From the NCBI GenBank assembly GCA_030059675.1, contig JANVYQ010000016.1, positions 1 through 21,665 of the forward strand: DNA of 21,665 bases, in the 5' to 3' direction. The notes beneath the pieces were generated by a model. The model saw only the letters and a program-made list of their open reading frames with translations, had not been told where the DNA came from and made no database searches. Source of the stretch: Candidatus Pelearchaeum maunauluense (lineage in GTDB: Archaea; Thermoproteota; Nitrososphaeria_A; Caldarchaeales; Caldarchaeaceae). Every line of letters begins with the position of its first letter. The first letter of the stretch is position 1. Positions 1-3,016 of the stretch are shown piece after piece. Position numbers and translations under genes: made by a program.

Positions 1-30
1 AACAAAAAATATTATGTAAAAATGTAAAGG
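1..30 (-). terminator. Possible T-rich archaeal terminator downstream of the LAGLIDADG unit
   Basis: The minus strand reads CCTTTACATTTTTACATAATATTTTTTGTT shortly after the AACTCCC end. Confidence 0.35.
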
Positions 31-61
31 GAGGAGGGAGTTGAGTTGGCCGGGCTAAGTT

Positions 62-1102
62 TTAATAATCCTTTTTCTTCTTAATGTTTCTTCCTATTGC
101 TACTCTTAGTTTCTGACATACGCGCCTCCAATCATTGCTGCTTCTTATCACATCAACGTAGCTTTGGATTGTTCTTATGGAAAGTTCAATCAGATATCGT
201 TTCCTGCTTATTGGTGTTCCCACCACCTCTAAGAATCTCTGGTAATCCTCGGGATGAATTAATATCTCGTATACATCTTTCTTTGTATGCATCCACATCT
301 TCTTTTGCGAATTCCAACGTCTTTCACCTTCCTTGGCAATCAACGATGATGGGCTAGCCCGTATTTTTAATTCTTTCAGTAAAGACTCAATGTATGTCAA
401 AAGCTGTTTATTCGAGTTGACAAAGCTTGGAAATAATGCTATTCCATCTCCGTCGAAGAATCCTTTGAGGAGTACGAGTTTGACTTGTTTGTCTGCATTT
501 ATGTATGTTTTCCATTGGTTATATTTTAGTATGTGATAGAGTTCTGCTGTTTGGGCTCTGACTTGTAGTCTGCCATCGGTGAGCTGGTTTATCGCGGGTT
601 TGAGGCCTATCTTGGCTAAGGCTTGTGCGAATGTCTGGGCGTATTCTGTGTCTTTGACGCGTAGTTCTATGTCTGCCTGTTCGGAGTGTTTGGAGAATCT
701 TCCGTCAGATAATATTGTTCCGACGACATAGCCGAACCAGTATCCGTCTTTCTTAACTTGAATGACCTTCCCATTCGGCTTGTGTTTCGCTCTTACCGAG
801 AGGCTTATGATGGATTTGCCTAGCCACTCGTTGAACTCGGCTAGAATAGACCTTTGAATCTCCTTGTAGCTTTTTCCTTCTTTACGTAGCCCCAGAGTTC
901 TTTCGTATATTTTCTGCCTGAGCAGTAGTGGTCTAATGCTTCTTGTTTTTACATTTTTCAGCGTATATATCTGTCTTAGCCGGTAGTCCGACATCATTCT
1001 GGGAATATCTGAGCCGTATCGATACTGTGGTCTCGGCTTAGTCTCTCTCCTATATGATAGTGTCTTTCCTCTTAGCTTTGGTATATTTCTCTGAGTTTTC
1101 AT
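62..1102 (-). CDS. LAGLIDADG homing-endonuclease family protein (two motifs) with N-terminal basic region and HTH-like domain, ~346 aa
   Basis: Motifs YVVGTILSDG and LLKGFFDGDG. HTH-like segment YERTLGLRKEGKSYKEIQRSILAEFNEWLGKSIIS. Start moved from 1294 to the ATG at 1102 (MKTQ), which has GAGGA just upstream; the 1103-1294 extension overlaps RNA hairpins. Confidence 0.85.
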   Translation of the reverse strand: MKTQRNIPKLRGKTLSYRRETKPRPQYRYGSDIPRMMSDYRLRQIYTLKNVKTRSIRPLLLRQKIYERTLGLRKEGKSYKEIQRSILAEFNEWLGKSIISLSVRAKHKPNGKVIQVKKDGYWFGYVVGTILSDGRFSKHSEQADIELRVKDTEYAQTFAQALAKIGLKPAINQLTDGRLQVRAQTAELYHILKYNQWKTYINADKQVKLVLLKGFFDGDGIALFPSFVNSNKQLLTYIESLLKELKIRASPSSLIAKEGERRWNSQKKMWMHTKKDVYEILIHPEDYQRFLEVVGTPISRKRYLIELSIRTIQSYVDVIRSSNDWRRVCQKLRVAIGRNIKKKKDY

Positions 1103-1750
1103 TTTATCCTCTTCTTCGTTGCCCCTTAGGCCTCGACCTCGCAGGAGCGAAGGCTCCCAAAAATTGCAAGGCCTACAAGCCCTTCTTTTACCGCCATCCG
1201 GGGCTTGATGGCGGTCCCGCGTGGACAGGGCCTTCATACTCCCCCATGACAGAATGTTGGGGGAGGCGCCTGCTAGGCCGCGAAGCCCCGCCATGCGGAA
1301 CCACCATCATGGTCTGTTACGTCAGCTATATCCAAAGGCATTAGGCGGAATTATCTGAAAATCGACTAGCCGTCAACAGGGTGTCAATAGCGATCTTTTT
1401 CATCACTTGTCCGGGTTCTCCTCTCTGCGTCTTCTCCGGGAATCTCCTTATGCTCGCCTCGTTCACCACGTGCTCCAGGCATTATTAGCCCTCCACCGCA
1501 CGCTCCGGGAGCAAGCATAAGAGCTATCCGTTCACCGAAGACGCAGGAGGATATCAGCCCTCATATAGGAGATGCGTATGAGATATTGGCTCCAGATTAG
1601 CGCAGCCATTATGGGAGCCTTTCACCACCAGACTCCGGGAAAATCCCTTCACCGCCAAGCTCCGGGCACCCTAAGGCTCACCAACACCAACACTCTCACA
1701 CGGAGAGCACCCATCGGGCAGGCCTCCGAGAGGCTCAGGCTAAAACTCCC
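1103..1750 (-). ncRNA. Large structured RNA (leader of the endonuclease ORF) with multiple kink-turns; family not recognised
   Basis: Long nested stems (1419-1434/1537-1551, 1444-1457/1511-1523, 1578-1590/1686-1699) are interrupted by repeated GGU-GAA / (C)GGA asymmetric loops. G-U pairs and the K-turn motifs work on the minus strand. No convincing protein-coding frame. Confidence 0.7.
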
Positions 1751-3016
1751 AACAGGGCCGCCTCCCTCCTTGTATACGTCGCAGTAGGGGCTGGCATAAC
1801 CAGCTACCTCACATGGTCTTATCTAGGCCTTCCAGACTTTGCTCTAGAGCGCGCTGTAACTGTGATGGTAATAGCATGTCCGCATGCTCTTGGACTAGCC
1901 ATACCGCTGGTAGTAGCAATATCAACTTCTATGACTGCTAAGCGTGGAATATTGATAAGGGATAGACGGGCATTCGAGTCGGCTAAAGATGTTAATGCCG
2001 TGGTCTTTGATAAGACGGGAACGCTGACCGAGGGGAAATTCGGGGTAACGTCTGTTGTTTCCTACATACCTGAAGAGAAACTGCTCATGCTAACCGCTAG
2101 TGTGGAGAAGAATTCAGAACACATAATAGCACGCGCCATCGTAGAATATGCTGCTAGCAAGGGAATAAGACCAACAAGCCTAGCTGAGTTTAAAGCAATA
2201 CCTGGAAAGGGAGTATACGCCCGCGTGGATGGGCGCGAAGTATATGTTGGTGGACCAGCTCTTCTTGAAGAGCTTAATATAGAGATTAATGATGAAGAGG
2301 TGCTTAAACTCCAGAGTCAAGGAAAAACTGTAGTCTTCTCCATAGTGGATGGGAAGCTGGCAGGCGCTATAGCGCTGTCTGACATAATACGCAGCGAGTC
2401 GTATGAAGCCGTTAAGAAGCTCAGGGAGATGGGTGTTAGGACGTACATACTGACTGGAGATGCTGAGGAGGTTGCCAGATGGGCTGCTAAGGAGCTTGGG
2501 GTAGATGAGTATTTTGCGCAGGTTCTACCGCATGAGAAGGCTGAGAAGGTACAGCTCTTAAAGAAGCAGGGATTCACAGTGGCGATGGTTGGAGATGGAA
2601 TAAATGACGCTCCAGCTCTGGTTAACGCTGACGTTGGAATAGCGATAGGCGCAGGCACGGATGTGGCTATAGAGAGCGCCGATATAATACTCGTCAAGAA
2701 CGACCCTAGAGACGTGCCCGTTGTTATAGAGCTTTCGCGGAAAACCTATTCCAAGATGTATCAAAACCTCTCGTGGGCTGGCGGATATAATATATTCGCC
2801 ATACCCCCAGCAGCAGGAATACTGGCCACATACGGCCTTGTTCTAAGCCCAGCGATAGGCGCCCTCTTCATGTCTCTCAGCACGGTAATAGTCGCGATTA
2901 ACAGCCAGACATTAAGGAAGTATATGCCAAAAGCGGAGGAAATCACGATAACGACGGAGGAAGAGAAGAAAGTTGAGGAAGTTCCAGCCCATGCGCATCA
3001 TCACTATAACCACTAA
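1751..3016 (+). pseudogene. copB: 5'-truncated CopB-type (P1B-3) copper-translocating P-type ATPase
   Basis: CPH, DKTGT, GDGINDAP, YN and MSLST motifs, plus a His-rich tail. The frame reads as CopB upstream of the called start (NRAASLLVYVAVGAGITSYLTWSYLGLPDFALERAVT, from 1751). The actuator domain (TGES), N-terminal helices and metal-binding domain are absent. Confidence 0.85.

What the first reader, a model, noticed from the sequence alone, without database searches (positions are those of the whole stretch)
36..1750. Candidate new system: LAGLIDADG endonuclease coupled to a large multi-kink-turn RNA in one closed unit
Seen: on the minus strand a ~650-nt structured non-coding segment directly precedes an HTH-LAGLIDADG ORF. 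The first and last nucleotides of the unit pair (GGGAGUU/AACUCCC), a T-rich tract follows, and the 5' end coincides with the copB break. Known: archaeal LAGLIDADG enzymes usually sit in rRNA introns, inteins or free-standing genes, and I see no rRNA exon or intein here. ncRNA-upstream-of-nuclease layouts are known for IscB/omegaRNA (HEARO). Inference: this may be a selfish RNP element in which an L7Ae-bound RNA scaffolds or guides the nuclease, or an intron-like or circularising mobile RNA. The function is not demonstrated.
Basis: partly seen in the sequence, partly recalled or inferred. Interest (0 to 1): 0.93.

Follow-up and report, generated by a model that had tools for sequence, protein, structure and literature searches.

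The report
Kink-turn-rich archaeal RNA with endonuclease passengers

Summary
Window 1144-1750 (-) is a non-coding, structured RNA of 607 nt, followed by an I-DmoI-like LAGLIDADG gene (62-1102). Its 5' end lies exactly where copB breaks, as the intact sister-species gene shows.

The RNA has three copies: the window, a second in the same genome, and one in Calditenuaceae archaeon HR02. They are 72-74% identical, show compensatory changes and carry 5-6 consensus kink-turns. No Rfam family matches.

The "coupled system" reading is not supported:
- The three copies are followed by different nuclease genes: two LAGLIDADG genes only 27% identical, and an HNH pair.
- The LAGLIDADG family is in 48 of 76 class genomes, up to 29 matches each. 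The RNA is in 2 of 76.
- The HNH family is common on viral contigs, and none of 79 loci checked had the RNA.

The window copy is a relic. It lacks about 90 nt of 5' sequence kept by the other two, has lost one kink-turn, and joins copB at a GTTGG microhomology. Its end pairing is therefore partly accidental.

Best reading: a new, rare, mobile-DNA-borne L7Ae-type RNA gene whose 3' flank attracts free-standing homing endonuclease genes. Its function is unknown. No expression data could be obtained.

The parts
1144..1750 (-). Core of a new kink-turn-rich structured RNA (607 nt). Domain 1 is about 1552-1750, domain 2 is 1417-1554, domain 3 is about 1169-1346. This copy is 5'-truncated compared with the other two.
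   Evidence: Homologues found. Covariation. No coding signal. MFE z-score -5.45. No Rfam match. Column-to-coordinate map.
1417..1554 (-). Domain 2: a basal kink-turn (Kt4) plus a double kink-turn module (Kt5 and Kt6) that share a 5-bp C-stem. Kt6 reads GGUGGA in this copy instead of GGUGAA.
   Evidence: Alignment A4, kink-turn table, covariance model R1.
1600..1670 (-). Apex of domain 1: a double kink-turn module (Kt2 and Kt3) that share a 6-7-bp C-stem. An 8-nt deletion nearby removes Kt1, which the other two copies keep.
   Evidence: C9 shows U-A and G-C where the window has U-G and G-U in the shared stem; this was read from the alignment.
1160..1183 (-). Hairpin followed by a run of five T at the 3' end of the RNA core: a possible RNA terminator. 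The T5 run is shared with the C9 copy.
   Evidence: This is weak evidence: the scan found 2 such sites and shuffles give 2.1. T5 conservation is seen.
62..1102 (-). Free-standing I-DmoI-like LAGLIDADG homing endonuclease gene with an N-terminal helical (HTH-like) region. It is 346 aa from ATG 1102. Homologues start aligning near residue 40-60, so the true start may be a later Met. The open frame also runs upstream to ATG 1294 (410 aa).
   Evidence: Pfam. Alignment with invariant D133, G214, D217, G220 and an acidic residue at 219. AF2 model pLDDT 72.7. Foldseek match to I-DmoI. Family distribution.
1..61 (-). 3' tail of the nuclease cassette: CCCGGCC..ACTCCCTCCTCCC (36-54), then T-rich sequence. 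A convergent tRNA-Trp gene ends 15 nt beyond window position 1, on contig C7.
   Evidence: The strict motif occurs in the 1.79-Mb genome only at the two RNA units.
1749..1753 (.). Junction between the RNA copy and the copB remnant, with the microhomology GTTGG. That sequence is shared by sister-species copB and by the G032 copy of the element.
1751..3016 (+). copB (CPH-type P-type ATPase) remnant. It corresponds to residues about 261-681 of the intact 681-aa orthologue. The N-terminal half was not found anywhere in this assembly.

Best explanation
Two things are joined here.

(A) A new family of large structured non-coding RNA. The core is about 610 nt, or about 700 nt with the 5' extension kept in the other two copies. 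It is built from long helices and five to six consensus kink-turns, four of them arranged as two 'double kink-turn' modules. It most likely exists as an L7Ae-bound RNP. It is an accessory, horizontally moving gene, probably carried on virus or plasmid DNA of Caldarchaeales (Aigarchaeota). The chromosomes hold only scattered, partly decayed copies.

(B) Ordinary free-standing homing endonuclease genes. These have inserted, more than once and from two unrelated families, into the same slot just 3' of the RNA core. They can be expressed there by read-through (a Shine-Dalgarno-like GAGG precedes the ATG) or from their own promoter (G032 copy). From there they spread by double-strand-break repair, co-converting flanking sequence.

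The window copy is a relic. It lost the native 5' extension, and presumably its promoter, in a microhomology-mediated rearrangement. That event also removed the first 260 codons of copB and placed the unit beside tRNA-Trp, the usual kind of site for this LAGLIDADG family.

Shown: RNA conservation and structure, kink-turn motifs, modular nucleases, family distributions, truncation, the break point.

Inferred: L7Ae binding, transcription pattern, virus or plasmid origin, homing into the RNA's flank, what the RNA does.
For: - RNA against nuclease divergence: 72-74% nucleotide identity for the RNA, against 27% amino-acid identity for the two LAGLIDADG proteins. The third copy carries HNH genes instead.
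- The slot is the same in the window and C9. Homology runs to just past the T5 run and a small hairpin.
- The RNA is under structural selection and is not coding.
- RNA distribution: BLAST finds real, long matches in 2 of 76 class genomes (G000 and G032, plus one 30-nt match in G024) and in 2 of 401 sampled phylum genomes (plus three short ones). Model R1 finds it in 2 of 76.
- LAGLIDADG family: 48 of 76 genomes, up to 29 matches per genome, many with stops or at contig ends, and 0 in the sister species.
- Three further LAGLIDADG remnants in this genome lack the RNA. One lies beside a tRNA that Rfam calls. Another lies beside a tRNA-like sequence read by eye.
- HNH family: 572 confirmed viral stretches, and 0 of 79 loci checked have the RNA.
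- All three copies lie among gene fragments: a copB half, glycosyltransferase pieces, an IS fragment and a tRNA-Gly half.
- Break point and microhomology.
- An L7Ae gene is present.
Against: - Only three RNA copies exist, so the covariation statistics are thin and the shuffle control does not correct for relatedness.
- In 3 of 3 copies a nuclease gene follows directly on the same strand. That is more than chance and could mean a functional tie.
- In C9 and G032 the 5' extension is complementary to the tail after the nuclease ORF (21 intermolecular pairs in three runs, and 16 in three runs). This brackets RNA plus ORF as one unit and fits a single closed transcript better than two independent genes.
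- No empty RNA gene without a nuclease was found.
- No virus or plasmid carrying the RNA was found.
- The terminator-like site is no more than shuffles give.
- There is no expression evidence.
Confidence: 0.55

Rival explanations
1. The RNA is a long cis-acting leader of the endonuclease mRNA. The whole unit is one transcript whose 5' and 3' ends pair into a panhandle. L7Ae binding at the kink-turns stabilises the mRNA at high temperature or throttles translation of a potentially toxic nuclease.
For: - Same strand and direct adjacency in 3 of 3 copies.
- A GAGG 6 nt before ATG 1102, with no AT-rich promoter-like stretch between RNA and ORF in the window.
- Complementarity between the 5' extension and the tail in C9 and G032.
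- L7Ae binding to kink-turns in mRNA leaders is reported to regulate translation in archaea (PMC5539422 and PMC6298567, abstracts seen in the listing).
Against: - Hundreds of family members do without such a leader.
- The RNA is far better conserved than the ORFs it would serve.
- A conserved T5 run lies between the RNA and the ORF.
- The G032 copy has an AT-rich, promoter-like stretch between the RNA and the ORF, and has lost the RNA's last 85 nt or so.
- A 600-nt, six-kink-turn leader is far beyond the single kink-turn leaders described.
Confidence: 0.17
2. The unit is an intron-like or circularising mobile RNA element. The RNA core is a ribozyme or a substrate of the splicing endonuclease, and the nuclease ORF sits in a 3' loop, as homing endonuclease genes sit in group I introns or archaeal rRNA introns.
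For: - Different nuclease families sit in the same slot of a conserved RNA, the classic pattern of group I introns.
- The nuclease is closest in fold to I-DmoI, an archaeal intron enzyme.
- Flanking complementarity encloses the unit.
- The genome does use BHB splicing on an mRNA: the sod intron.
- Group I introns exist in Aigarchaeota (PMC6125680, passages read).
Against: - No copy interrupts a gene in sense. The window copy is antisense to copB.
- There is no 3' flank homology beyond the short tail.
- There is no group I or II hit at E up to 10. The same Rfam model does find the published Caldiarchaeum intron, at 26 bits.
- At the ends, only candidates with 2-bp inner helices (2-5 bp outer) appear, where the true sod intron has a 5-bp inner helix.
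- The window copy lacks the 5' arm altogether.
Confidence: 0.12
3. An RNA-scaffolded or RNA-guided nuclease RNP, analogous to HEARO/IscB.
For: The layout is an ncRNA upstream of a nuclease gene in all three copies.
Against: - The nuclease partners are two unrelated small families that each occur widely without the RNA.
- LAGLIDADG enzymes read DNA through their own saddle (established knowledge; fold confirmed).
- The 5' 21 nt are invariant, and the most variable stretch (alignment columns about 380-425) is partly base-paired.
- There is no HEARO match.
Confidence: 0.03
4. The RNA-like segment is functionless debris of a decayed element. It is conserved only because the copies are young.
For: - Each copy carries its own deletions: 8 nt with Kt1 in the window, 38 nt with Kt3 and the last 85 nt or so in G032.
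- All copies lie among gene fragments.
Against: - At 26-28% divergence the helices are still 92.5% paired, with 23 double changes.
- Five or six kink-turn consensus sites are kept in register in three lineages.
Confidence: 0.08

Closest known systems
GOLLD and ROOL RNAs (large bacterial non-coding RNAs, often on phages or prophages and near tRNA genes); this description is recalled, not taken from a call
   Same: It is a large (about 600-800 nt), highly structured RNA of unknown function. It has a patchy distribution, lies in mobile or variable DNA, and has tRNA genes next door.
   Different: There is no sequence or structure match to any Rfam family. The host is archaeal. The architecture is dominated by kink-turns. 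A homing endonuclease gene follows it in 3 of 3 copies.
Homing-endonuclease-bearing introns (group I introns; archaeal rRNA introns such as the I-DmoI intron)
   Same: A conserved structured RNA carries interchangeable LAGLIDADG or HNH genes in one slot. The nuclease has an I-DmoI-like fold.
   Different: No host gene is interrupted in sense. There is no ribozyme-family match and no convincing BHB motif.
HEARO / IscB omega-RNA
   Same: A non-coding RNA lies directly upstream of a nuclease gene.
   Different: There is no HEARO match. The nucleases are small stand-alone LAGLIDADG or HNH proteins that mostly occur without the RNA. There is no variable guide end.
L7Ae-bound kink-turn RNAs (box C/D and H/ACA sRNAs, RNase P RNA, L7Ae mRNA leader)
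   Same: The repeated motif fits the kink-turn consensus: a 3-nt bulge, tandem G.A/A.G pairs, and flanking C and NC stems.
   Different: Only one C-box-like GUGAUGA is present and there is no conserved D box (reading). The two kink-turns of a module share a base-paired stem where a guide would be. The size and number of kink-turns exceed the known small RNAs.
Free-standing homing endonuclease genes of phages (for example those of T4; recalled)
   Same: These are multi-copy, often decayed nuclease genes inserted beside conserved genes. Here they lie beside tRNA genes and the RNA gene.
   Different: The host is archaeal and the enzyme is I-DmoI-like with an N-terminal helical domain. The target sites are unknown.

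Membership tests
LAGLIDADG homing endonuclease (monomeric, I-DmoI-like) | Two LAGLIDADG motifs, each with its acidic catalytic residue | tested here: met
   Alignment A6: G128 and D133 in motif 1; G214, D217 and G220 invariant, with D or E at 219, in motif 2.
LAGLIDADG homing endonuclease (monomeric, I-DmoI-like) | Profile match above the curated cut-off | tested here: met
   PF14528 scores 30.4 bits against 22.5. There is no sequence match in PDB.
LAGLIDADG homing endonuclease (monomeric, I-DmoI-like) | Two-lobed alpha-beta-beta-alpha-beta-beta-alpha fold | tested here: met
   AF2 on a 6-row alignment gives pLDDT 72.7. Foldseek finds I-DmoI at E 1.7e-8, TM (target) 0.66-0.70. The single-sequence model was unusable, pLDDT 39.5.
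LAGLIDADG homing endonuclease (monomeric, I-DmoI-like) | Site-specific DNA cleavage and homing | not testable with these tools
   Needs a cleavage assay.
Group I intron | Match to the group I core model | tested here: not met
   No RF00028 hit at E up to 10 in any of the three copies. In the own-genome scan the best hit is 13 bits, elsewhere. The control Caldiarchaeum 23S intron is found at 26.1 bits.
Group I intron | Interrupts a host gene in sense, with conserved exons on both sides | tested here: not met
   The window copy is antisense to copB. The C9 and G032 copies are intergenic. Flanks are not homologous beyond the unit.
Group II intron | Domain V/VI or D1-D4 model match and a reverse transcriptase ORF | tested here: not met
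   No Rfam match. The ORFs are LAGLIDADG or HNH.
Archaeal bulge-helix-bulge intron | BHB motif (3-nt bulges on opposite strands, 4 bp apart) at both boundaries | tested here: not met
   My own script finds the sod mRNA intron as a control: 2-bp outer helix, 4-bp centre, 5-bp inner helix. At the unit ends it finds only candidates whose inner helix is 2 bp (outer 2-5 bp). The stricter run missed the control, so it carries little weight.
HEARO / IscB omega-RNA system | HEARO RNA model match | tested here: not met
   No Rfam match of any kind at E up to 10.
HEARO / IscB omega-RNA system | Variable guide segment at one end of a conserved scaffold | tested here: not met
   The first 21 nt (GGGAG...) are identical in all three copies.
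HEARO / IscB omega-RNA system | Nuclease family restricted to loci with the RNA | tested here: not met
   LAGLIDADG is in 48 of 76 genomes against the RNA in 2 of 76. HNH: 0 of 79 viral loci have the RNA.
Kink-turn (L7Ae-binding) motif | C-stem, 3-nt bulge, tandem sheared G.A/A.G pairs, NC-stem | tested here: met
   Six sites fit the pattern -1b C/U, GGU (or AGU), GA, A opposite C, G, GA, G. Flanking stems are kept in the copies. The consensus itself is recalled from the literature.
Kink-turn (L7Ae-binding) motif | Binding by L7Ae | not testable with these tools
   An L7Ae gene is present in the genome at 102.5 bits. Binding needs an assay.
Box C/D sRNA | C (RUGAUGA) and D (CUGA) boxes, plus C' and D', with unpaired guides between them | tested here: not met
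   One GUGAUGA is conserved, but the candidate CUGA is present in the window only. The segments between kink-turns are base-paired. The only Rfam C/D hit is a chance-level 21 bits inside the ORF.
Type III toxin-antitoxin (ToxIN-like) | Tandem array of short RNA repeats before the nuclease gene | tested here: not met
   TRF finds only a 15-nt hexamer run.

The most novel reading that the evidence does not exclude
The about 700-nt RNA, its nuclease ORF and its tail are one closed, self-propagating RNA-DNA element of a new class. The long-range helix between the 5' extension and the tail would define a processed, perhaps circular, L7Ae-packaged RNA. That RNA would both express the endonuclease and be needed for the element's spread, making it an archaeal counterpart of an ORF-bearing intron that no longer needs a host gene. 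Independently of mobility, the double kink-turn modules could make it assemble into a higher-order RNP, as recently seen for other giant non-coding RNAs.
Probability: 0.12. Interest if true: 0.85.

Novelty: new variant of a known kind. Interest (0 to 1): 0.6.

Why it matters
Large structured non-coding RNAs without a known function are few, and almost all described ones are bacterial. This one is archaeal and matches no Rfam family. It is built from an unusual density of consensus kink-turns, including paired kink-turns that share a stem. It always carries a homing endonuclease passenger.

If expressed, it offers three things:
- a natural multi-L7Ae scaffold;
- a test case for how selfish nuclease genes choose RNA genes (tRNA flanks and this RNA) as landing sites in archaea;
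- a possible marker for unknown mobile elements of Aigarchaeota.

The finding also corrects an attractive but unsupported idea of an RNA-guided LAGLIDADG system.

Tried and rejected
- Rfam at gathering and at E up to 10 on all three copies gave nothing relevant.
- Group I was tested with a positive control.
- BLAST of the RNA against 41 relatives, 76 class genomes and 401 sampled phylum genomes found only G000 and G032. Short matches of 30-42 nt in G024, G130 and G364 were not followed.
- Exact-pattern scans:
  - Genome contigs gave 4 stretches, of which 1 is real (HR02);
  - Metagenome contigs gave 3 stretches, none real;
  - Viral contigs gave 0 and 5 stretches, none real.
- blastn against the phage and plasmid collections found no match.
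- Covariance model R1 covers domain 2 only, because the tool takes at most 400 columns. It found the 3 copies in 76 class genomes. In a 151-genome phylum sample it gave one 23.8-bit hit, G207. I judged that hit chance: it lacks the first kink-turn, has no nuclease gene nearby, and its E of 0.017 per genome must be set against 151 genomes.
- nhmmer with the full alignment on the own genome found only the two copies.
- Sequencing runs: none was listed. Read laying was therefore not used, and nothing can be said on expression.
- The first AF2 model, from a single sequence, was unusable.
- The search for homologous proteins with the window protein found only itself.
- The inverted-repeat probe from the 5' extension gave 10 hits at up to 3 mismatches (9 besides the probe itself; about 4 expected). 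The two best lie inside an ordinary gene, so this is not a repeat family.
- The strict tail motif was absent from the tails of 10 further family loci. It is therefore a subfamily feature, and blastn-short sees only a 12-nt identity between the tails of C13 and the window.
- The empty site for the C9 copy could not be read. The sister-species contig ends right after sod.
- Supplementary files of papers were not consulted.
Full report
WHERE THE WINDOW LIES. The window is contig C19 of a 1.79-Mb, 21-contig assembly (G000). Its first 77 bases repeat the end of contig C7, so C7 precedes it. The only other holder of the RNA is named by its record as Archaeon HR02, or Candidatus Calditenuaceae archaeon HR02. 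A same-family genome of G000 carries the published Caldiarchaeum subterraneum intron at the published coordinates. I therefore take G000 to be a member of Caldarchaeales (Aigarchaeota). This is an inference.

THE OBSERVATION. On the minus strand the order is as follows.
- 1751 and upward: antisense to a copB-type P-type ATPase fragment.
- 1750-1144: no long conserved ORF.
- 1102-62: a 346-aa ORF with a LAGLIDADG_3 match.
- 61-1: a C-rich then T-rich tail.

A tRNA with a 29-nt insert at the anticodon loop (anticodon CCA by eye) ends 15 nt beyond window position 1 on the other strand. Rfam scores it at 61 bits; ARAGORN missed it. The 7-nt complementarity GGGAGTT/AACTCCC is there. However, 100 inverted pairs of 7 nt or more exist in these 1.9 kb, so alone it means little.

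THE RNA IS REAL.
- A second copy lies at G000:C9:76499-77111 (72% identity). A third lies in G032:C28 (74% identity) and lacks the last 85 nt or so.
- Variable columns are spread evenly over the three codon positions (64/180, 72/180, 68/179). Indels are mostly not multiples of three.
- RNAalifold predicts 187 pairs in three domains. 92.5% of cells are paired. 23 pairs carry changes on both sides, against 12.0 +/- 2.3 in column shuffles (0 of 500) and 3-11 in slid controls. With three sequences this is modest but consistent evidence.
- The window RNA folds 5.45 sd better than 20 shuffles.

KINK-TURNS. Six sites share one pattern. One strand reads C-stem, GGU (once AGU), GA, A. The other reads C, G, GA, G, C-stem. 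The closing pair is C-G or U-G. This fits the kink-turn consensus as I recall it.
- Four of the sites form two 'double' modules, Kt2/Kt3 and Kt5/Kt6. In each, two kink-turns face each other across a shared 5-7-bp stem. The two modules resemble each other, which suggests an internal duplication.
- The motifs GRTGAA and CYGGAG occur 5 and 6 times in the window RNA, 5 and 5 in C9, and 3 and 3 in G032. Genome frequencies predict 0.37 and 0.41.
- The genome encodes L7Ae.
- The window copy has lost Kt1 through an 8-nt deletion and has GGUGGA at Kt6. G032 has lost Kt3 through a 38-nt deletion.

WHAT IT IS NOT.
- No Rfam family matches any copy at E up to 10.
- The Rfam group I model does find the published group I intron of C. 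subterraneum, at 26 bits, but nothing at these loci (PMC6125680, passages read).
- No tandem repeat array is present.
- No copy interrupts a gene in sense.
- A script for bulge-helix-bulge motifs recovers a true 32-nt BHB intron in the sod gene next to the C9 copy. At the unit ends it finds only weak candidates with 2-bp inner helices. A stricter run missed the control.

THE NUCLEASE GENES ARE INTERCHANGEABLE PASSENGERS.
- After the RNA come a LAGLIDADG gene (window), a LAGLIDADG gene only 27% identical (G032, E 1e-18), or two tandem small HNH genes (C9; PHROG HNH at E 4e-5 and 1e-4; a Cys4 plus D-H...N...N pattern in an alignment of 21 sequences).
- The window enzyme has both motifs with their acidic residues. 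Modelled on a 6-row alignment (pLDDT 72.7), it is closest to I-DmoI (E 1.7e-8).
- A profile of this family hits 48 of 76 class genomes at E <= 1e-5. There are up to 29 matches per genome, many with stops or at contig ends, 3 in G000 and 0 in its sister species. The RNA is in 2 of the same 76 genomes.
- In G000, three further LAGLIDADG remnants (C12, C13, C15) lack the RNA.
- One of these abuts a tRNA that Rfam calls. Another abuts a tRNA-like sequence read by eye. Of 10 further family loci, 5 show tRNA-like sequence just downstream, also by eye.
- The HNH family gave 572 tblastn-confirmed stretches in IMG/VR. None of the 79 loci kept has the RNA domain.
- So the RNA always has a nuclease, but the nucleases hardly ever have the RNA.

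ENDS OF THE UNIT. C9 and G032 share about 90 nt upstream of the GGGAG with which the window's homology begins.
- This extension holds a small hairpin around an AT-rich, TATA-like stretch. That is my reading, not a test.
- It also holds a purine-rich run, GGAGGGUGGUCGGGUU.
- After each nuclease ORF comes a short tail: CCCGRCC, 0-6 nt, ACUCCC, then U-rich sequence.
- The strict motif occurs nowhere else in the 1.79-Mb genome.
- Looser versions follow the three LAGLIDADG remnants. Ten family members in other genomes do not have it.
- In C9 and G032 the extension pairs with the tail in three runs: 6+9+6 bp in C9 (a 3-nt and a 1-nt bulge between) and 4+9+3 bp in G032. In C15 both arms lie side by side as a local hairpin.
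- This bracket is the strongest point for a single closed unit, and I cannot explain it away. It may be a panhandle of one transcript, a split palindromic target site, or terminal inverted repeats.

THE WINDOW COPY IS A RELIC.
- The sister species G001 has an intact 681-aa copB, 96% identical over the shared part.
- DNA homology stops at window 1749/1750.
- The missing N-terminal half of copB is nowhere in G000. The neighbouring rtcB sits on another contig beside a different gene.
- On the other side, homology with G001 ends a few bases after the tRNA.
- The junction reads GTTGG. That sequence is shared by G001 copB and by the G032 element. This points to microhomology-mediated joining, not site-specific insertion.
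- So the coincidence of the RNA's 5' end with the copB break is real, but it marks a truncation.

READING. I favour a new accessory RNA gene of mobile origin whose 3' flank is a landing site for free-standing homing endonuclease genes (confidence 0.55).

Ahead of the alternatives:
- a long L7Ae-controlled leader (0.17);
- an intron-like or circularising element (0.12);
- functionless debris (0.08);
- an RNA-guided nuclease (0.03).

Virus or plasmid origin is inferred from four things. The distribution is patchy. The copies lie in gene-fragment islands. tRNA genes are adjacent. The HNH gene is of viral type. No such replicon was found.

LIMITS.
- There are only three copies.
- No sequencing run was listed.
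- Only domain 2 could be modelled for remote search.
- Literature: searches for kink-turn with L7Ae and homing endonuclease gave 0 papers. Searches for Aigarchaeota with homing endonuclease and intron gave 3 papers. I read passages of two of them, and they did not describe this RNA; the third I saw only as a listing. A listing of L7Ae and kink-turn papers showed no such RNA in titles or abstracts. This is not proof that it is unpublished.

Noticed in passing
L002 about 521-552 (G000:C9, + strand), and L051 in the sister species: The Fe/Mn superoxide dismutase gene is interrupted by a 32-nt insert between ...WEH and AYYLQYK. The insert folds into a canonical bulge-helix-bulge motif: GG GAGC [AUA] CGAGG / CCUCG GCUC [AGG] CC. 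Removing it at the second base of each bulge restores the frame. It is conserved with two substitutions in G001. This is a likely mRNA intron in a protein-coding gene.
   Followed up: partly
L003 1388-1486 (+), contig C7, ending 15 nt before window position 1: A tRNA (anticodon CCA by eye) has a 29-nt insert at the anticodon loop. ARAGORN missed it; Rfam scores it at 61 bits. It converges on the LAGLIDADG gene.
   Followed up: partly
76 genomes of the class; loci L151-L160: The HTH-LAGLIDADG family is a proliferating selfish gene in this class. It is in 48 of 76 genomes, with up to 29 matches per genome, many with stops or at contig ends. By eye, copies often lie just beside tRNA genes.
   Followed up: partly
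L005 356-394 and 3405-3443 (G032:C28): Two inverted copies (90% identical) of the 5' 39 nt of a tRNA-Gly gene flank the 3-kb island. The island holds the RNA, the LAGLIDADG gene, an IS fragment (DUF4096) and a zinc-ribbon membrane protein. The left copy is 100% identical to the tRNA-Gly of a relative (G021) and stops in the anticodon loop.
   Followed up: partly
L062 about 2555-2600 (-) (G000:C15): A local hairpin, GAGGTGGTCAG-ATAATG-CCTGGCCACCTC, is followed by a T-run. It lies after a LAGLIDADG C-terminal fragment and before a convergent tRNA. Its arms resemble the 5' extension and the tail that lie 1.4 kb apart in the RNA units, so it may be an unsplit form of that bracket.
   Followed up: no
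L036 ORF 206-1063 (G000:C20) and L062 ORF 2869-3225 (G000:C15): Two unrelated ORFs end with the same peptide, ...LTCVVFHGHT. This hints at a short repeated DNA segment at rearrangement points, one of them at the place where copB used to adjoin rtcB.
   Followed up: no
   Followed up: partly
L064 7627-12001 (G000:C9:77627-82001): A 4.4-kb stretch next to the C9 copy has only two ORFs of 90 aa or more (one a BrnT-like toxin) and no Rfam match. Truncated glycosyltransferase genes lie on the other side. This is a decaying variable region.
   Followed up: no
G130:C44:60761-60802 and G364:C8:181914-181955: Two genomes of another family share a 42-nt, 81% match to RNA positions 47-88 of the query (E about 4e-4 per genome). 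The nature of the match is unknown.
   Followed up: no
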